Shown in pieces: positions 1 through 6,371 of a DNA stretch of 7,677 nucleotides. The first letter of the stretch is position 1; every line of letters begins with the position of its first letter. Below the pieces are notes generated by a model. The model worked only from the letters and a program-made list of their open reading frames with translations. It was not told the DNA's origin and did no database searches. The translations under genes and the position numbers were made by a program. Where the stretch lies: positions 1 through 7,677 of the IMG/VR virus record IMGVR_UViG_2681813234_000009, one strand, 5' to 3'. Origin of the DNA: a virus. Lineage: Duplodnaviria; Heunggongvirae; Uroviricota; Caudoviricetes.

Positions 1-426
1 TCAATGTACTGCCACAGCATTTCCTGCCGGGCCACCACGGTTCATCTGATTGAAACCGGCGATTGCCACTGCGACAAAATCATCAGCGTCTCTCACCAGT
101 CGTTCCCGCGTCTCCACCAACTCCCGAAAATAGACTGAACTGTGGCTGCGCATCCGGGCCACCAGCAGAGGTGGCATTGCTTTTTCGATCGCTGGTAACA
201 ACGCCTGAATTTTTTCAACCGCATCAGTGGTGTCTTTCTCCACCCAGCGGAAAATTTTCTGGGTATTACGAGCCAGGGCTTCTGGATGGCTGTCGTCGTA
301 CAGTTCCGGGGACGTCATTCCCAGTTCGAAATAAGCCCTGGTTATCTTGGCCGCCGGAACTTTTTCACCATCCGGACGCGCCCAGGCATTCATAGCCATG
401 CGGATGTGTTCATGCTTGATTTTCAT
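1..426 (-). CDS. CII-like phage regulatory protein (YdaT / CP76-type), 141 aa
   Basis: Complete ORF on the minus strand; stop codon is revcomp of nt 1-3 (tca). Lies directly downstream of the Cro-like gene with an ATGA start/stop overlap, the classic cro-cII arrangement. The N-terminus MKIKHEHI matches my recollection of YdaT-type proteins; family assignment is from memory, not a search. Confidence 0.55.
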   Translation of the reverse strand: MKIKHEHIRMAMNAWARPDGEKVPAAKITRAYFELGMTSPELYDDSHPEALARNTQKIFRWVEKDTTDAVEKIQALLPAIEKAMPPLLVARMRSHSSVYFRELVETRERLVRDADDFVAVAIAGFNQMNRGGPAGNAVAVH

Positions 427-650
427 GAATCATTCTTTCCTTCGTTCAAGGTGTTATCCTTCTTTTTGTAAAGTTCTGGGTTCAAAGATAATTTTCCCTT
501 GGAGTATGCGGCAGCTTCCGCGGCCCTCCCCTTGGGAACTATTTCACCAGGACGTTTGCGCCACATGTATATAGCTTCACGGGTTATCCCATAAAAATCG
601 GCAACTCTCTGAACAGAGCCAAAAAACTGGACAAGTTCATCAACTCGCAT
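423..650 (-). CDS. Cro-like HTH transcriptional regulator (YdaS/DicC-type), 75 aa
   Basis: Small basic protein with an HTH-like segment (VADFYGITREAIYMWRK). Strong SD AGGAGG 5 nt upstream of the ATG on the minus strand (plus-strand 651-660 ttcaccctcc). Divergent from the CI-like repressor across an operator-rich intergenic region. Confidence 0.7.
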   Translation of the reverse strand: MRVDELVQFFGSVQRVADFYGITREAIYMWRKRPGEIVPKGRAAEAAAYSKGKLSLNPELYKKKDNTLNEGKNDS

Positions 651-742
651 TTCACCCTCCTAAAACTAAGTATTTTTAGATTAAAGGATAATTTTTTTTA
701 GGTCAATGCAATCTAAAATAATTTATATTCAATTCACGGGAG
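651..742. promoter_or_regulatory. Divergent promoter/operator region between cro-like and cI-like genes (OR analog)
   Basis: 92 bp AT-rich intergenic region between divergent regulators. Contains a 20 bp imperfect palindrome CTAAAACTAAGTATTTTTAG (660-679, 16/20 symmetric) and a second inverted pair TTTTAG(695-700)...CTAAAA(713-718). Individual -10/-35 elements were not confidently resolved. Confidence 0.55.
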
Positions 743-1393
743 ATGATGATGGAAAGCCTTGGCATTAGGCTTAAGAGACTCAGAAAAGACAAGGGACTGA
801 CCCAAGTCGAACTGGGCAAGCTTTCTGGCGTAACAGGGGTAACTATAGGGTACTGGGAGAAAGACCTAAACGAACCCGGTAGCAAAGCTCTTAGTAAATT
901 AGCCCAAGCACTAGGAACTACTGAGTCCTATCTCCTATATGGAGTATCGTCTACTGAACCTACCCTTGTGCAGAACAATTCAGGCACCCAAATCCCCTAT
1001 CTTTCATGGGGGGAAGCAATTTCTTTCCTAATTTTAGAAGGAGAGAAAACTATGGGAAATGCCGACAGAATCACCACATTCTTTGACGTCAAGGAGGGGG
1101 ATTTTGCCGTTTCAATGCCTGATGACACTATGCACAACCCATCAGGGTCGCCAAGCATTCCGGTTGGTGCCACAGTGATCATGAGGCCTAGAGAAAAATA
1201 TAAAAATGGTAGTATCGTCGCTGTAATAGTCCCAGATCCGCTTACAAACGAACCATCTATGACTATAAAAAAATTAGTCATCGACGGAAAACTCGTGTAT
1301 TTAAGCCCCCTCAATCCTCGCTATCAATCGTCCTTACTGACACCTGAATGTAAAATTGTTGCTGTAGCAAAAGGTGTGCAGTTCAGCCTATAG
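743..1393 (+). CDS. CI-like prophage repressor, N-terminal HTH (XRE-type) plus C-terminal S24 (LexA/CI-like) peptidase domain, 216 aa
   Basis: N-terminus LKRLRKDKGLTQVELGKLSGVTGVTIGYWE is a typical HTH. C-terminal region aligns by eye to the lambda CI/LexA C-terminal domain (AVSMPDD Ser motif, NGSIVAV, TIKKL Lys motif, LSPLNP). Three consecutive ATGs at 743/746/749; GGGAG at 738-742 gives best spacing for the third ATG (749). Confidence 0.85.
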   Translation: MMMESLGIRLKRLRKDKGLTQVELGKLSGVTGVTIGYWEKDLNEPGSKALSKLAQALGTTESYLLYGVSSTEPTLVQNNSGTQIPYLSWGEAISFLILEGEKTMGNADRITTFFDVKEGDFAVSMPDDTMHNPSGSPSIPVGATVIMRPREKYKNGSIVAVIVPDPLTNEPSMTIKKLVIDGKLVYLSPLNPRYQSSLLTPECKIVAVAKGVQFSL

Positions 1394-1416
1394 CTTCCAC
1401 TTTGTTTTTCAATCAG

Positions 1417-1441
1417 AGGTCGGCTTTGTCGACCTTTTTTA
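1417..1441 (+). terminator. Rho-independent terminator after the cI-like gene
   Basis: Stem AGGTCG(1417-1422) / CGACCT(1430-1435) with a 7-nt loop, followed by TTTTTT (1436-1441), 24 nt after the cI-like stop. Confidence 0.6.
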
Positions 1442-1463
1442 AATATATCTAGATCACACTTGA

Positions 1464-1493
1464 CTATAAAACTAAATAGATTTAGTTTTATAG
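1464..1493. promoter_or_regulatory. 30 bp palindromic operator-like site (possible OL analog) downstream of cI-like gene
   Basis: ctataaaactaaat-ag-atttagttttatag: two perfect 14 bp inverted arms around a 2 bp centre. Shares the 9-mer TAAAACTAA with the OR region (661-669). Preceded by TTGACT (1460-1465). Confidence 0.4.
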
Positions 1494-1669
1494 TATACCA
1501 CCCCACCCCGCCCCACAGAACGCAGGGCAATACTTCGAGTTACCAGGCAGTGGTCAGGGGTTAAGTAGCCAGCCCGAGGCGTAAGAACATGACGGCAGGG
1601 TTCAACTTTAATAACTATGCAGCAGGTTTTTGTTCCGCTACCCCGGCGTTAAGGGGACATGAGGTCAAC

Positions 1670-1822
1670 ATGGATACTATCGATCTTGGCAACAACGAAT
1701 CTCTGGTATACGGCGTGTTTCCCAACCAGGACGGCACATTCACCGCGATGACGTATACCAAAAGCAAAACGTTTAAAACCGAATCTGGCGCGCGTCGCTG
1801 GTTAGCCAGAAATACTGACTGA
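1670..1822 (+). CDS. ydfA: YdfA-like small prophage protein (DUF1391-type), 50 aa
   Basis: Internal ATG at 1670 with GAGG 5 nt upstream. Product MDTIDLGNNESLVYGVFPNQDGTFTAMTYTKSKTFKTESGARRWLARNTD matches my recollection of Qin-prophage YdfA. The longer track ORF from 1589 has no obvious RBS. Confidence 0.6.
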   Translation: MDTIDLGNNESLVYGVFPNQDGTFTAMTYTKSKTFKTESGARRWLARNTD

Positions 1823-2286: not shown

Positions 2287-2733
2287 CTAACTACAAAGAA
2301 ATCGCATCAATTTAGATTTTGTGGGCAGCTTCTCTTGTTGTTCGATGGAAACGCCTATTTTGATCTGTGTTTTTAAGATCGCAATATCTTTAAGTGATGA
2401 CCAAATATGAACATCCGTTTTTTCCAGAATTTTTAACTGCATTTTCAATTCAGAATCAGAATATTTTTCTGCATCATCAAAAAGCTGCAAATATTCTGCG
2501 GATTTTCTCATGGCGTTACCTGACTTTTGTCCGAATCCATAAATCGTTTGGACGGTTGCGATCACAACAATAAAAACGCCAGAAATTTCCGGAATGAATC
2601 CGCCAATGACAGATGAACCGAGGATAATACTCACCACTGAGAGAAGTTTATCGAGACGACCAGTTGCTACCGAAAATAGTTGCTCAAGAAAATAGCCATA
2701 TAAAATTCTGTCAAGAATATCATCCCGGTCCAT
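2287..2733 (-). CDS. Small membrane protein with two predicted transmembrane helices, 148 aa; function unknown (candidate exclusion/abortive-infection effector)
   Basis: Minus-strand ORF with AGGTGA 6 nt upstream of the ATG. Two hydrophobic helices (LLSVVSIILGSSVIGGFI and GVFIVVIATVQTIYGF) separated by a short PEIS turn, then a roughly 80-aa charged helical C-terminus. Strongly AT-rich versus flanking phage genes and opposite in orientation to the surrounding operon. Confidence 0.65.
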   Translation of the reverse strand: MDRDDILDRILYGYFLEQLFSVATGRLDKLLSVVSIILGSSVIGGFIPEISGVFIVVIATVQTIYGFGQKSGNAMRKSAEYLQLFDDAEKYSDSELKMQLKILEKTDVHIWSSLKDIAILKTQIKIGVSIEQQEKLPTKSKLMRFLCS

Positions 2734-3194
2734 ACATCATCACCTGCTTGTTTGGTTGTTGCTGTTCCCCCTCTCCTCCGAAGGAGCTGGAGATGGTTTT
2801 GGTCGAATGTTTTTCTCTGGTATGTGATCCCAGACTGTTTTATGTGTCGAATTGCCACCACCTGCTTGTGCTCTTTGCTCTGTCATATGATTTCCTTGGA
2901 TCGTTGGGGATATCCAGATTATACAGATTTCTTGTCGTTGGGGAATGACAGGAACCACCTCGCCTGACGTGGTTAAAAGCAGGCACACAACACGAAAGCG
3001 CACGGCGAAGTCATTTCTCCCTCTGTTGCGTGTCGCCGGTATCTTCGACCGTGCGCTTCCGGTTGTGGCACTCCGCGAAATGGCGCGGCGGTAAGTATGG
3101 CGGGGTTATCCTTACCCCCACTGGTAGCACCGGGTTGTCAGGTTGACCATACGCCTGAGTGACAACCCCGCCACAACATCTCCATGTTGAGGCT

Positions 3195-3249
3195 TGTGTG
3201 AGACCTTTGGCGGCATCAGTTTAATTGCTGGCTGATGTCCGCCCTTTTT
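3195..3249 (+). ncRNA. dicF: DicF-like small RNA (3' end defined by intrinsic terminator); 5' end approximate
   Basis: Terminator stem GGCGGCATCAG(3209-3219) / CTGATG(T)CCGCC(3232-3243), 11 bp with one bulge, then CTTTTT (3244-3249). Positioned immediately upstream of dicB as in Qin. Sequence and architecture resemble my recollection of E. coli DicF, but the 5' part differs. Confidence 0.5.
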
Positions 3250-3253
3250 AAAG

Positions 3254-3413
3254 TGAATTTTGTGATGCGGTGAATGCGGCTAAGCGCACGCGGAACAGTT
3301 AAAAAGCGATTAGTTCCCCCGTATCGGGGGTTTATGGGTTTCCCTGTATCCGGCGTTAATTGTTAACTGGTTAACGTCACCTGGAGGCACCAGGCACCGC
3401 ATCACAAAATTCA
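3254..3413. repeat. 19 bp perfect inverted repeat pair flanking about 120 nt of the dicB leader
   Basis: tgaattttgtgatgcggtg (3254-3272) is the exact reverse complement of caccgcatcacaaaattca (3395-3413). Enclosed region holds the hairpin CCCCCgtatcGGGGG and GTTAAC-tg-GTTAAC. The right arm ends 17 nt before the dicB ATG. Confidence 0.7.
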
Positions 3414-3430
3414 TTGTTGAGGATGCGATA

Positions 3431-3613
3431 ATGGAAACGTTATTACCAAACGTCAATACGTCTGAAGGTTGTTTTGAAATTGGTGTCAGAATCAGTAACC
3501 CTGTATTTACTGAAGATGCCATTAACAAGAGAAAACACGAACGGGAGCTATTAAATCAAATATGCATTGTTTCAATGCTGGCCCGTTTACGCCTGATGCA
3601 AAAAGGACGCTGA
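3431..3613 (+). CDS. dicB: Cell division inhibitor DicB, 60 aa
   Basis: METLLPNVNTSEGCFEIGVRISNPVFTEDAINKRKHERELLNQICIVSMLARLRLMQKGR closely matches my recollection of E. coli Qin DicB. GAGGA RBS upstream. Preceded by the DicF-like element, the same order as in Qin. Confidence 0.9.
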   Translation: METLLPNVNTSEGCFEIGVRISNPVFTEDAINKRKHERELLNQICIVSMLARLRLMQKGR

Positions 3614-3615
3614 CA

Positions 3616-3819
3616 ATGAATACAGTATTTGCACTCGTTCTGACAGTTTTTCTTAATACAGGCGAGCCAGTCGATCTTGTTATTGGTATACATGACTCAA
3701 TGAAAGAATGCATGGCTGCCGCAGCGGAACAGAAAATTCCCGGCAACTGTTATCCGGTTGATAAAGTTATTCACATGGACAATAACGAAATCCCGGCAGG
3801 ACTTAAAACAGCACCGTAA
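3616..3819 (+). CDS. ydfD: YdfD-like small membrane/lysis protein, 67 aa
   Basis: ATG at 3616, 2 nt after the dicB stop. MNTVFALVLTVFLNTGEPVDLVIGIHDSMKECMAAAAEQKIPGNCYPVDKVIH... has a hydrophobic N-terminal helix and matches my recollection of Qin YdfD. The longer track ORF from 3562 overlaps dicB and is unlikely. Confidence 0.8.
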   Translation: MNTVFALVLTVFLNTGEPVDLVIGIHDSMKECMAAAAEQKIPGNCYPVDKVIHMDNNEIPAGLKTAP

Positions 3820-3899
3820 TTAATATCCGGTTTCATTTTTATATGCCAGCAATGGCAGGGATTTGTTCACCCTTAAATCTGTAATGAGGTTAAAACAAA

Positions 3900-6371
3900 A
3901 TGAGTAAAGTCTTTATTTGCGCCGCCATTCCGGACGAACAGGCAATAAAGGAAGAAGGTGCAGTCGCTGTAGCCACTGCCATTGAAGCCGGCGACGAACG
4001 CCGCGCCCGAGCCAAATTTACCTGGCAATTCCTGGAGCAATATCCGGCTGCTCAGGACTGCGCTTATAAATTTCTTGTTTGCGAGGATAAACCCGGCATG
4101 CCCCGCCCTGCCATCGACTCCTGGGATACCGAATATATGCAGGAAAACTGCTGGGATGAGGAATCCGCTTCCTTTATTCCGGTCGAACCAGAATCCGATC
4201 CGATGAACGTCAATTTTGACAAGCTGTCCCCTGAAGTACAGAACGCGGTCCTGGTTAAGTTCGACACATGTGAAAACATCACCGTTGATATGGTTATTAG
4301 CGCACAGGAATTGTTGCAGGAAGACATGGCAACATTCGACGGACATATCGTTGAAGCGTTGATGAAAATGCCAGAAGTTAACGCCATGTATCCGGAGCTT
4401 AAGTTGCACGCCATTGGGTGGGTTAAGCATAAATGTATTCCTGGTGCTAAATGGCCCGAAATTCAGGCAGAGATGCGCATCTGGAAAAAACGTCGCGAAG
4501 GTGAACGCAAGGAAACCGGAAAATACACGTCTGTTGTTGATCTCGCCCGCGCCAGAGCCAATCAACAGTACACTGACAATTCAACAGGAAAAATCAGCCC
4601 GGTCATTGCTGCCACTCATCGCGAATACAAGCAGACATGGAAAACACTGGATGACGAACTGGCCTACGCTCTCTGGCCTGGTGATGTGGATGCCGGAAAC
4701 ATTGACGGCAGCATCCATCGCTGGGCAAAAAATGAAGTTATCGACAACGACCGCGAAGACTGGAAGCGTATCTCGGCATCAATGCGCAAACAGCCTGATG
4801 CCCTTCGCTACGACCGACAGACTATTTTTGGCCTTGTCCGTGAACGTCCGATCGACATTCACAAAGACCCTGTGGCACTGAACAAATACATTACTGAATA
4901 CCTGACTACAAAGGGCGTGTTTGAAGATGAAGGAACAAATCAGAGCGCAACTGATACTCTCTCGTCGCCAGTACCAGAAACTGATGCAGTGGAAACGGCA
5001 ATTCCGGACAACGAAAAAACCGAATGCAAAGTTGAAGTCGAACCATCTGTAGAGCGTGAGGGGCCGTTCTACTTCCTCTTCACAGATAAGGATGGCGAAA
5101 AATATGGTCGCGCAAACAAACTTTCTGGTCTGAATAAGGCGCTGACTGCAGGGGCTACTGAAATCACGAAAGAAGAATATTTTGCCCGTAAAAACGGTAC
5201 ATACTCAGGTTCACAACAAAATACTGGTGCATCTGACACGACCGCACAACCAGAGCCGGTAAAAGTTACCGCTGACGAAGTAAACAAAATTATGCAGGCA
5301 GCCAATATCAGCCAGCCTGACGCCGATAAGTTGCTTGCTGTATCACGTGGTGAATTTGTTGCAGGGATTAGCGACCCGAATGATCCGAAATGGGTGAAGG
5401 GGATTGAAACCCGCGATTCAGTGAATCAGAACCAGCAAGAAACGGAACAGAACGACCAGAAAGCGGAACAAAACAGCCCAAATGCGTTACAAAACGAGCC
5501 AGAAACGAAACAACCTGAGCCAGTAGCGCAACAGGAAGCGGAAAAAGTCTGCACCGCCTGCGGTCAGACCGGCGGCGGCAACTGCCCTGATTGTGGTGCG
5601 GTGATGGGCGACGCAACATACCAAGAAACATTCGATGACAAGAACCAGGTTGAAGTTCAGGAAGACGATTCGGAGAAAATGGAAGGCGCTGAACATCCAC
5701 ACAAAGAGAATGCTGGCAGCGCTCAGGATCACGCCAGCGATAGTGAAACTGGCGAGACGGCAGATCCCTTAATTACGGTGAACGGTCATCACGTTATCAC
5801 ATCCACCAGCAGGACGTGTGACCATCTAATGATCGACCTTGAAACCATGGGAAAAAATCCTGATGCCCCGATTATCTCAATAGGTGCAATATTTTTCGAT
5901 CCGCAAACCGGAGATATGGGACCGGAATTTAGTAAGACTATCGATCTGGAAACTGCTGGCGGAGTCATTGATCGGGACACCATTAAATGGTGGCTTAAGC
6001 AATCACGCGAAGCGCAATCTGCCATTATGACCGATGAAATCCCGTTAGATGATGCACTGTTACAATTGCGGGAATTTATCGACGAAAACTCCGGTGAATT
6101 TTTTGTTCAGGTCTGGGGAAATGGAGCCAACTTCGACAACACGATTTTGCGCCGTTCATACGAACGGCAGGGGATCCCCTGCCCGTGGCGTTACTACAAC
6201 GATCGCGATGTACGCACAATCGTTGAGCTGGGGAAAGCCATAGACTTCGATGCCAGAACGGCTATTCCATTCGAAGGTGAGCGCCATAATGCACTTGATG
6301 ACGCCCGTTACCAGGCAAAATACGTTTCAGCAATCTGGCAAAAACTGATCCCGAATCCGGTTGATTTTTAA
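3900..6371 (+). CDS. ydfE: Large YdfE-like prophage protein, 823 aa: N-terminal YdfE-homologous region, low-complexity Q/E/N-rich linker, CxxC-x7-CxxC motif, C-terminal DEDDh-type 3'-5' exonuclease domain
   Basis: Uninterrupted 2.47 kb ORF with GAGG upstream. N-terminus MSKVFICAAIPDEQAIKEEGAVAVA... matches my recollection of K-12 YdfE. C-terminus carries DEDDh motifs: D646-x-E648 (MIDLETMG), N-FD (GNGANFDNT) and H796-x4-D801 (HNALDDARY). Cys551/554/562/565 form a CxxC-x7-CxxC motif. Confidence 0.85.
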   Translation: MSKVFICAAIPDEQAIKEEGAVAVATAIEAGDERRARAKFTWQFLEQYPAAQDCAYKFLVCEDKPGMPRPAIDSWDTEYMQENCWDEESASFIPVEPESDPMNVNFDKLSPEVQNAVLVKFDTCENITVDMVISAQELLQEDMATFDGHIVEALMKMPEVNAMYPELKLHAIGWVKHKCIPGAKWPEIQAEMRIWKKRREGERKETGKYTSVVDLARARANQQYTDNSTGKISPVIAATHREYKQTWKTLDDELAYALWPGDVDAGNIDGSIHRWAKNEVIDNDREDWKRISASMRKQPDALRYDRQTIFGLVRERPIDIHKDPVALNKYITEYLTTKGVFEDEGTNQSATDTLSSPVPETDAVETAIPDNEKTECKVEVEPSVEREGPFYFLFTDKDGEKYGRANKLSGLNKALTAGATEITKEEYFARKNGTYSGSQQNTGASDTTAQPEPVKVTADEVNKIMQAANISQPDADKLLAVSRGEFVAGISDPNDPKWVKGIETRDSVNQNQQETEQNDQKAEQNSPNALQNEPETKQPEPVAQQEAEKVCTACGQTGGGNCPDCGAVMGDATYQETFDDKNQVEVQEDDSEKMEGAEHPHKENAGSAQDHASDSETGETADPLITVNGHHVITSTSRTCDHLMIDLETMGKNPDAPIISIGAIFFDPQTGDMGPEFSKTIDLETAGGVIDRDTIKWWLKQSREAQSAIMTDEIPLDDALLQLREFIDENSGEFFVQVWGNGANFDNTILRRSYERQGIPCPWRYYNDRDVRTIVELGKAIDFDARTAIPFEGERHNALDDARYQAKYVSAIWQKLIPNPVDF

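What the first reader, a model, noticed from the sequence alone, without database searches (positions are those of the whole stretch)
3431..3819. Intact dicB-ydfD host-toxic module
DicB (MinC-dependent inhibitor of FtsZ ring formation) and YdfD (reported to cause lysis when expressed) are both full-length and translationally close (2 nt apart). Together with the DicF-like sRNA they form a three-layer cell-division and envelope-targeting cassette under repressor control. DicB has also been reported to affect phage receptor/transport functions, so the cassette may contribute to superinfection exclusion.
Basis: established knowledge. Interest (0 to 1): 0.4.

Follow-up and report, generated by a model that had tools for sequence, protein, structure and literature searches.

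The report
Ordinary prophage dicB–ydfD gene pair
This stretch holds two well-known small prophage genes of E. coli, the cell-division blocker dicB and the lysis gene ydfD, in uninterrupted, common natural versions, so it is a correct but ordinary observation.

Summary
Confirmed and already known. Window 3431-3613 encodes a 60-aa DicB (Pfam DicB, 127.5 bits; 54/59 identical to K-12). Window 3616-3819 encodes a 67-aa YdfD (DUF1482, 80.8 bits; 46/63 identical). Neither has exactly the K-12 length. DicB ends two codons early through a TGG->TGA change. YdfD is four residues longer through a 1-nt indel. Both exact proteins are already named in public databases (about 997 and 81 contigs). Related DNA occurs in 4656 of 5426 complete E. 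coli genomes and in isolated lambdoid phages such as mEp460 and Tritos. Both genes show purifying selection (pN/pS about 0.3). Published K-12 truncations show that the last 8 residues of DicB are dispensable. YdfD is sensitive at both ends, so lysis by the 67-aa form is untested. The pair lies at the far end of a Qin-type early-left operon: CI-type repressor, PL-like promoter under an operator palindrome, ydfA-like gene, DicF, a structured leader, dicB, ydfD. Caveats: K-12 DicB suppresses YdfD lysis, so the layers are not additive. This DicF allele lacks the K-12 loop that faces the ftsZ ribosome-binding site. DicB blocks phage DNA entry, not adsorption.

The parts
3431..3613 (+). dicB coding sequence, 60 aa. 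The allele ends ...LMQKGR, with the stop TGA at 3611-3613.
   Evidence: ORF list and sequence. Pfam DicB 127.5 bits. 54/59 identical to K-12 DicB. PGAP annotates the same CDS as dicB in a 99.9% identical copy. The exact protein is seen on about 997 contigs. It differs from the sibling allele ...GRWQ by TGG->TGA at codon 61.
3419..3423 (+). Shine-Dalgarno GAGGA of dicB, 7 nt before the ATG.
   Evidence: Read from the sequence. Invariant in 25 of 26 spacer variants. Predicted to pair with the U-tract that follows DicF.
3616..3819 (+). ydfD coding sequence (DUF1482), 67 aa, ending ...PAGLKTAP. It has its own AAGGA at 3603-3607 inside the end of dicB.
   Evidence: Pfam DUF1482 80.8 bits. 46/63 identical to K-12 YdfD. 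phrog_1092 at 1.4e-37. PGAP CDS of the same length in UTAK-5. The exact protein is on 81 contigs. The 67-aa form is found in 65 of 86 related loci.
3614..3615 (+). 2-nt gap between the dicB stop and the ydfD start. Most alleles have an ATGA overlap instead.
   Evidence: Sequence. Junction geometry across loci: 66 with a 4-nt overlap, 20 with a 2-nt gap.
3844..3867 (+). Terminator-like hairpin (TGCCAGCAATGGCA) with a T-rich tail after ydfD. Probable 3' boundary of the dicB-ydfD transcript.
   Evidence: Terminator scan. Sequence identical in K-12. In K-12 the longest transcript seen ends after ydfD (PMC10448788).
3245..3430 (+). Structured leader between DicF and dicB. Two nearly invariant blocks flank a hypervariable cassette. 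Distantly STnc100-like.
   Evidence: Fold z-score -5.4. Rfam STnc100 35.8 bits, below the cut-off of 47, and 33-38 bits in K-12 and other alleles. Alignment and consensus fold with a 28-bp outer helix and no compensatory pairs. Blocks differ by 1-2% and the cassette by 30%.
3195..3244 (+). DicF-type small RNA allele, whose intrinsic terminator is stem 3212-3239 plus a U-tract.
   Evidence: Rfam DicF 45.4 bits, E=1.3e-07, below the cut-off of 48. Syntenic and alignable with K-12 dicF. Terminator scan. One of at least four allele classes.
2985..3194 (+). Conserved untranslated region upstream of DicF, homologous to the K-12 ydfC-dicF region from which the 190-nt DicF precursor is cut.
   Evidence: Alignment with K-12. 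Fold z-score -3.4. RNase III and RNase E processing in K-12 (PMC10448788).
1460..1494 (+). Candidate PL-type promoter (TTGACT, 17 nt, TAGTTT at 1460-1488), overlapped by a perfect 15+15 palindromic operator (1463-1494).
   Evidence: Sequence. Inverted repeat I2. Operator core CTAARTNNWTTTAG found only here and at 666-679 and 713-726, with 0.19 expected by chance. The promoter hexamers were read by eye and were not listed by the consensus scan.
743..1393 (+). CI-type repressor (HTH_3 plus Peptidase_S24 fold), the presumed repressor of the operon.
   Evidence: Pfam. Alignment with lambda CI.

Best explanation
Window 3431-3819 carries dicB and ydfD. These are the two small protein genes at the distal end of a Qin/mEp460-type 'dicBF' early-left operon of a lambdoid prophage of E. 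coli. Shown here: both reading frames are uninterrupted and match their family profiles end to end. They sit in the canonical order DicF, structured leader, dicB, ydfD, terminator-like hairpin, exonuclease, xis-like gene, integrase. Both are under purifying selection, and both exact alleles are widespread and already named. Inferred by homology with K-12: the operon is silent in the lysogen because the CI-type repressor (743-1393) occupies an operator palindrome over a PL-like promoter (1460-1494). After derepression, transcripts must read through the DicF terminator and a long structured leader to reach dicB. dicB is translated from GAGGA-7nt-ATG. ydfD is translated by ribosomes that terminate 2 nt upstream or that use its own AAGGA. 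DicB binds MinC and takes it to ZipA at the septal ring, which dissolves the FtsZ ring and causes filamentation. Through the same MinC interaction, DicB disables the ManYZ inner-membrane channel that lambda-type phages use for DNA entry. YdfD inhibits IspG in the isoprenoid (MEP) pathway and lyses dividing cells, and the division block by DicB counteracts this effect. The 2-residue shortening of DicB should not matter. Whether the 67-aa YdfD lyses cells as the 63-aa K-12 form does is not known.
For: Identity: Pfam DicB 127.5 bits and DUF1482 80.8 bits. 92% and 73% identity to K-12 DicB and YdfD without gaps. DNA colinear with K-12 Qin from upstream of dicF to the exonuclease start. Same annotation by PGAP in a 99.9% identical copy. 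Commonness: matches in 4656 of 5426 complete E. coli genomes, median 2 places per genome. Present in isolated phages mEp460, Tritos, HannyBb and others. Exact proteins on about 997 and 81 contigs. Function retained: pooled pN/pS is 0.30 for dicB and 0.27 for ydfD across 41 and 52 nucleotide alleles. DicB residues 3-19 are identical to K-12 and L5 is kept. Published K-12 data show that deltaC8 and K2A/G/R stay toxic, while N-terminal deletions and L5A do not (PMC4967827). Regulation: CI-type repressor. Operator motif restricted to the cI-cro spacer and the PL region, 0.19 expected by chance. DicF terminator and post-ydfD hairpin. K-12 operon architecture and transcripts (PMC10448788). Activities in K-12: PMC6832061, PMC8835842.
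Against: No activity of these particular alleles has been measured. YdfD differs from K-12 at 17 of 63 positions and carries 4 extra C-terminal residues. K-12 YdfD loses lysis when one terminal residue is removed or with L63A. DicB has E2 in place of K2, a charge reversal that was not among the tested substitutions. The promoter hexamers were read by eye and were not picked up by the consensus scan. An intrinsic terminator (DicF) and a predicted helix over the dicB ribosome-binding site lie between the promoter and dicB, so expression may be low.
Confidence: 0.88

Rival explanations
1. The pair is present but YdfD of this allele is not a lysis protein. On this view the 4-residue C-terminal extension and the 17 substitutions change or abolish the IspG-directed activity described for the 63-aa K-12 protein, and only DicB is host-toxic.
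For: K-12 YdfD is extremely sensitive at its ends: deltaC1, L63A and deltaN1 all lose lysis (PMC8835842). The window protein adds KTAP after L63 and differs at 17 of 63 positions, mostly in residues 14-37.
Against: The 67-aa form is the commoner natural form in the sample (65 of 86 loci). It is under purifying selection (pN/pS 0.27). The C-terminal core EQKIPGNCYPVDKVIH and L63 are conserved. The 67-aa stop is still present downstream in 63-aa alleles, which suggests that the K-12 form is the derived one.
Confidence: 0.2
2. The module is a decaying remnant. On this view the nonsense codon at DicB position 61 is the first step of pseudogenisation, and the genes are no longer expressed or useful.
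For: DicB ends at a TGA that is TGG in the sibling allele. This breaks the ATGA overlap with ydfD that 66 of 86 loci keep. In K-12 the same operon lies in a defective prophage.
Against: The exact 60-aa protein is on about 997 contigs. Removing 8 C-terminal residues leaves K-12 DicB fully toxic. pN/pS is about 0.3 for both genes. Both ribosome-binding sites are intact. The neighbouring 823-aa exonuclease, xis-like gene and integrase are all intact here, unlike in K-12.
Confidence: 0.05
3. The genes serve the phage and not the host. On this view they are early-left 'kil-type' functions that arrest host division during lytic growth, and any exclusion of other phages is a by-product seen only on artificial expression.
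For: The same dicF-dicB-ydfD-exonuclease block is carried by isolated, viable lambdoid phages. Here it lies in a prophage arm with intact recombination and integration genes. The operon is repressed in the lysogen, so DicB would not normally be present to exclude incoming phages (PMC10448788).
Against: In K-12 the promoter switches on spontaneously in a subpopulation and under stress. Transient expression gives about 100-fold resistance to lambda. The module is retained in many defective prophages, at a median of 2 places per genome. The two roles do not exclude each other.
Confidence: 0.4

Closest known systems
dicB (b1575) of the Qin cryptic prophage, E. coli K-12 (Pfam PF05358)
   Same: 92% identity over 59 residues. 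Same position after DicF and the conserved leader, with the same ribosome-binding site. The N-terminal segment shown to be essential in K-12 is identical from residue 3 to 19.
   Different: 60 aa instead of 62, through TGG->TGA at codon 61. E2 in place of K2, plus four internal substitutions (T20R, Q36H, K43Q, P57Q). A 2-nt gap to ydfD instead of the 4-nt overlap.
ydfD (b1576), 'lysis protein' of Qin, E. coli K-12 (Pfam PF07358, DUF1482)
   Same: 73% identity over all 63 residues. Hydrophobic N-terminus and fully conserved C-terminal core EQKIPGNCYPVDKVIH...EIPAGL. Immediately downstream of dicB.
   Different: 67 aa, with KTAP added after L63 because of a 1-nt indel. 17 substitutions, concentrated in residues 14-37. 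Lysis and IspG binding have been shown only for the 63-aa form.
dicBF operon of Qin (ydfABC-dicF-dicB-ydfDE under DicA/DicC)
   Same: Same gene order and orientation relative to a divergent repressor/Cro pair: ydfA-like gene first, long untranslated region with DicF, then dicB-ydfD, then the exonuclease gene.
   Different: The repressor is a 216-aa CI type with an S24 fold, not the 135-aa DicA. The Cro-side genes are P22 Cro-like and YdaT-like. ydfB and ydfC are replaced by a 128-aa ORF and a minus-strand 148-aa ORF. The exonuclease (ydfE in K-12, a pseudogene cut by IS2) and the integrase are intact.
Early-left region of isolated lambdoid phages mEp460, Tritos and HannyBb
   Same: Contiguous match over 93% of window 3150-3900, annotated there as DicF, DicB, YdfD and exonuclease.
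   Different: Only 86-87% nucleotide identity. The closest copies (99.9%) are prophages in E. coli chromosomes such as UTAK-5, integrated next to yccA.

Membership tests
DicB (Pfam PF05358) | Scores above the curated family cut-off over the whole profile | tested here: met
   127.5 bits against a cut-off of 27, covering profile positions 1-59 of 62.
DicB (Pfam PF05358) | Intact N-terminal segment: no residue missing after Met1, and L5 present. K-12 mutagenesis shows this segment is essential. | tested here: met
   METLLPNVNTSEGCFEIGV compared with K-12 MKTLLPNVNTSEGCFEIGV. Only residue 2 differs, and K2A, K2G and K2R remain toxic in K-12. K2E itself was not tested in that paper.
DicB (Pfam PF05358) | C-terminal region retained up to the point needed for activity. 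In K-12 deltaC8 is active and deltaC12 is weakened. | tested here: met
   Only the last 2 of 62 residues are missing (PMC4967827).
DicB (Pfam PF05358) | MinC- and ZipA-dependent inhibition of FtsZ ring formation, and MinC-dependent inhibition of ManYZ | not testable with these tools
   Known for the K-12 protein only (PMC6832061).
YdfD / DUF1482 (Pfam PF07358) | Scores above the curated family cut-off over the whole profile | tested here: met
   80.8 bits against a cut-off of 25, covering profile positions 1-57 of 57. phrog_1092 positions 1-63 of 63.
YdfD / DUF1482 (Pfam PF07358) | Located directly downstream of dicB and translationally linked to it | tested here: met
   2-nt gap here. 86 of 89 dicB copies tabulated have ydfD at -4 or +2 nt.
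YdfD as a lysis protein (K-12 sense) | Exact N- and C-termini. In K-12, deltaN1, deltaC1 and L63A all lose lysis. | tested here: inconclusive
   The N-terminus and L63 are kept, but four residues (KTAP) follow L63. No data exist for the 67-aa form.
YdfD as a lysis protein (K-12 sense) | Binds and inhibits IspG, with lysis rescued by ispG overexpression | not testable with these tools
   Shown only for the K-12 protein (PMC8835842).
DicF RNA (Rfam RF00039) | Reaches the family's gathering score | tested here: not met
   45.4 bits against 48. K-12 scores 76.7 and other natural alleles 34-39. Homology is nevertheless clear from synteny and near-identical flanks.
DicF RNA (Rfam RF00039) | 3' part complementary to the ftsZ ribosome-binding site | tested here: inconclusive
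   The loop lacks the K-12 ACUCCG. The predicted duplex is -20.5 against -31.8 kcal/mol for K-12. The test does not separate even the validated K-12 pair from shuffles, 40 of 300 being as good.
dicBF-type operon under an immunity repressor | Repressor gene and cognate operators over the operon promoter | tested here: met
   CI-type repressor. Operator motif only at 666-679, 713-726 and 1472-1485, with 0.19 expected and 0 of 200 shuffles reaching the 4 matches observed. Binding itself was not tested.

The most novel reading that the evidence does not exclude
The dicF-dicB spacer (3245-3430) may be more than a passive leader. It could be a regulatory RNA of the STnc100/PasD kind. Its near-invariant 28-bp outer helix would hide the dicB ribosome-binding site until it is processed, for example by RNase III. 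Its hypervariable central cassette would be an allele-specific seed region. That would add a further, unrecognised control or effector layer to the dicB-ydfD module.
Probability: 0.15. Interest if true: 0.4.

Novelty: already known. Interest (0 to 1): 0.1.

Why it matters
It matters little beyond correct annotation. The window carries a typical, probably functional copy of a much-studied prophage module, in alleles that are already catalogued. It also shows that the K-12 reference forms (62-aa DicB, 63-aa YdfD, K-12 DicF) are only one of several natural allele sets. In the loci sampled here, the 67-aa YdfD and non-K-12 DicF loops are common yet untested. Conclusions drawn from K-12 about lysis and ftsZ targeting should therefore not be transferred to such copies without a test.

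Tried and rejected
1. I first took the hairpin CCCCCGTATCGGGGG (about 3319-3333) for a window-specific extra terminator between dicF and dicB. It is a one-base variant of a cassette shared by other loci (L005, L015, L067), and the terminator scan did not call it. Rejected.

2. I looked for covariation support for the leader structure. None of 56 pairs shows a compensatory change, because the paired blocks are almost invariant. The result argues neither for nor against the structure.

3. I used an RNA duplex energy test for DicF-ftsZ pairing with shuffle controls. The validated K-12 pair is not significant (z = -1.17), so the test lacks power. I use only the relative difference, and cautiously.

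4. PADLOC defence models give no hit for DicB, YdfD, the 128-aa ORF or the 148-aa ORF. The only hit is a weak DEDDh match for the exonuclease domain.

5. The search of one genome per species found close DicB relatives only in Escherichia and Shigella. One contig labelled Veillonella parvula MAG also matched, and I regard it as mis-binned.

6. I discounted the upstream in-frame ATG at 3562, which would give an 85-aa ORF, as the ydfD start. Homology, Pfam coverage and PGAP all point to ATG 3616.

7. The antisense promoter-like hit at 3456..3428 was discounted. The scan found fewer promoter-like sites (7) than shuffles give (11.8).

Full report
**Observation**

The finding names window 3431-3819. 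The ORF list and the sequence show an ATG at 3431, 7 nt after GAGGA (3419-3423). This ORF runs to TGA at 3611-3613 and encodes 60 aa. A second ATG at 3616, 8 nt after AAGGA (3603-3607), opens a frame that runs to TAA at 3817-3819 and encodes 67 aa. The mechanical ORF list extends the second frame to an upstream ATG at 3562. Homology, Pfam coverage and the PGAP annotation of a 99.9% identical copy in E. coli UTAK-5 (183-bp dicB, 204-bp DUF1482 gene) all place the start at 3616.

**Identity**

- The first protein matches Pfam DicB at 127.5 bits (cut-off 27).
- The second matches DUF1482, the YdfD family, at 80.8 bits (cut-off 25), over the whole profile.
- Against K-12 MG1655, DicB is 54/59 identical and YdfD 46/63 identical, without gaps.
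- The DNA is colinear with K-12 Qin from about 200 nt upstream of dicF to the start of the exonuclease gene.

**How intact the genes are**

Neither protein has the K-12 length.

- **DicB.** It ends two codons early. Sibling alleles read GGA CGC TGG CAA TGA (...GRWQ) and the window reads GGA CGC TGA, a single G-to-A nonsense change at codon 61. This also converts the usual ATGA overlap with ydfD (66 of 86 loci) into the 2-nt gap (20 of 86).
- **YdfD.** It is four residues longer (…AGL-KTAP). The K-12-type 63-aa alleles carry one extra T that creates TAA. The stop of the 67-aa form is still present downstream in those alleles. In a sample of 87 related loci, which is biased towards window-like DicB, the 67-aa form is the commoner one at 65 of 86.
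- **Database status.** Both exact proteins are already in public databases under these names. The 60-aa DicB is on about 997 contigs and the 67-aa YdfD on 81.
- **Selection.** Pooled pN/pS across 41 dicB and 52 ydfD nucleotide alleles is 0.30 and 0.27, which indicates purifying selection on both.

Published mutagenesis of the K-12 proteins settles one point and leaves the other open.

- DicB lacking its last 8 residues is still fully toxic. K2 can be replaced by A, G or R. N-terminal deletions and L5A lose toxicity (PMC4967827). The window protein keeps residues 3-19 and L5, so it is expected to be active.
- K-12 YdfD loses lysis with any single terminal deletion or with L63A (PMC8835842). The window protein keeps L63 but extends beyond it. 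Its lytic activity is therefore plausible but untested.

**Context and likely mode of action**

The window is the early-left arm of a lambdoid prophage. In order it contains:

- a YdaT-like and a P22 Cro-like gene on the minus strand;
- a 216-aa CI-type repressor (743-1393);
- a ydfA-like DUF1391 gene, whose probable true start is ATG 1670;
- a 128-aa ORF;
- a minus-strand 148-aa ORF;
- a conserved untranslated region with a DicF-type RNA (3195-3244);
- a structured leader, then dicB and ydfD;
- a terminator-like hairpin (3844-3857);
- an intact 823-aa exonuclease, a DUF4224 xis-like gene and an integrase.

A perfect 15+15 palindrome at 1463-1494 overlaps a PL-like promoter (TTGACT, 17 nt, TAGTTT). 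Its 14-bp core recurs only in the cI-cro spacer, at 666-679 and 713-726. Chance would give 0.19 matches, and none of 200 shuffles reached the 4 observed. This supports control by the repressor, although binding was not tested and I read the promoter by eye.

In K-12 the operon is transcribed from one promoter upstream of ydfA. [quoted passage not shown] The conserved hairpin after ydfD fits that 3' end.

The activities are inferred by homology. DicB binds MinC and takes it to ZipA at the septum, which blocks the FtsZ ring. DicB also disables ManYZ-dependent phage DNA entry without affecting adsorption (PMC6832061). YdfD inhibits IspG and lyses dividing cells (PMC8835842).

**Corrections to the 'three-layer cassette' picture**

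1. In K-12, co-expressed DicB or SulA prevents YdfD lysis, so the two proteins are partly antagonistic and not additive.
2. The DicF allele here scores 45.4 bits, below Rfam's cut-off of 48. K-12 scores 76.7 and other natural alleles 34-39.
3. The loop of this DicF allele lacks the K-12 ACUCCG that faces the ftsZ Shine-Dalgarno. The predicted duplex with the ftsZ leader is 11 kcal/mol weaker than for K-12. That test has little power, however.
4. Any exclusion of other phages requires expression of an operon that is normally repressed.

**Commonness**

- Megablast of 3150-3900 finds matches in 4656 of 5426 complete E. coli genomes, with a median of 2 places per genome.
- 38 phage records match, including the isolated phages mEp460, Tritos and HannyBb, with the same DicF-DicB-YdfD-exonuclease annotation.
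- Among one genome per species, close DicB relatives occur only in Escherichia and Shigella.
- The whole window is matched at 99.5% identity over 86% of its length. The remaining 14% is the immunity region, where the nearest strains carry RacR instead. This is ordinary lambdoid mosaicism.

**Side observations**

- **Leader.** The dicF-dicB spacer folds far better than shuffles (z = -5.4). It consists of two blocks that differ by only 1-2% between alleles, against synonymous divergence of 0.125 in dicB and 0.318 in ydfD. These blocks flank a cassette that differs by 30%. The spacer gives sub-threshold STnc100 hits in every allele, including K-12. The consensus fold has a 28-bp outer helix that pairs the U-tract after DicF with UUGAGGA, the dicB ribosome-binding site. 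No pair shows compensatory change. A 2026 preprint relates STnc100 to the PasD sRNAs but does not mention dicB.
- **Repressor.** The CI-type repressor aligns with lambda CI, with Thr in place of the nucleophile Ser149 and Ala-Ile in place of the Ala-Gly cleavage site, while Lys192 is kept. It is probably not RecA-cleavable and may need an antirepressor, as DicA does with Rem in K-12.

**Verdict**

The module is already known, very common and already annotated in identical form, so interest is low.

Noticed in passing
window 3195-3244 (+): The DicF allele is divergent. It scores 45.4 bits against the Rfam cut-off of 48, while K-12 scores 76.7. Its loop is UUUAAUUGCUGG where K-12 has UUUUACUCCGUGA, so the anti-Shine-Dalgarno CUCC facing ftsZ is missing. 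At least four DicF allele classes exist among related loci.
   Followed up: partly
window 3245-3430 (+): The dicF-dicB spacer is a strongly structured element (z = -5.4) that resembles STnc100 below threshold. Two blocks are nearly invariant (1-2% difference, far below the synonymous divergence of the flanking genes) and enclose a hypervariable cassette (30% difference). A predicted 28-bp helix covers the dicB ribosome-binding site. No covariation is available to test the structure.
   Followed up: partly
window 743-1393 (+): The CI-type repressor has Thr (DDTM) where lambda CI has the catalytic Ser149 (GNSM). It has Ala-Ile where lambda has the Ala-Gly cleavage site. Lys192 is kept. It is probably not RecA-autocleavable, so induction may need an antirepressor.
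   Followed up: partly
window 2287-2733 (-): A 148-aa ORF on the opposite strand sits inside the operon where K-12 has ydfC. It matches phrog_6315 (unknown function) and has no Pfam or PADLOC hit. It contains a long hydrophobic stretch. The same gene is annotated as hypothetical in E. coli UTAK-5.
   Followed up: partly
window 420-1500: The immunity region (Cro-like gene, CI-type repressor, operators) is not matched in the closest complete genomes. Those genomes carry YdaS and RacR at this place, while the rest of the window is 99.5% identical to them. This is a module swap.
   Followed up: partly
window 3900-6371 (+): An intact 823-aa exonuclease with a C-terminal Rv2179c-like 3'-5' exonuclease domain (phrog_2082, full length). 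The K-12 ydfE pseudogene is the IS2-truncated remnant of this gene.
   Followed up: partly
window 1589-1822 (+): The 77-aa ORF matches DUF1391 (YdfA) only from residue 29. The likely true start is ATG 1670, giving 50 aa, as annotated in UTAK-5.
   Followed up: partly
L087 (JAGZPX010000007.1): A 22.9-kb contig labelled as a Veillonella parvula metagenome-assembled genome carries an E. coli-type dicB-ydfD pair, with DicB 88% identical to the window's. It is most likely a mis-binned Escherichia prophage contig.
   Followed up: no
L022, L030 and other viral contigs: Some dicB-ydfD copies lack dicF, carry a deleted DicF, or have a mutated terminator stem (CCGTCC). The protein pair therefore also travels without a functional DicF.
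   Followed up: no
protein collection, cluster 1: One 90%-identity protein cluster mixes DicB and DUF1482 (YdfD) sequences. This is probably a clustering artefact for these very short, adjacent, overlapping genes.
   Followed up: no
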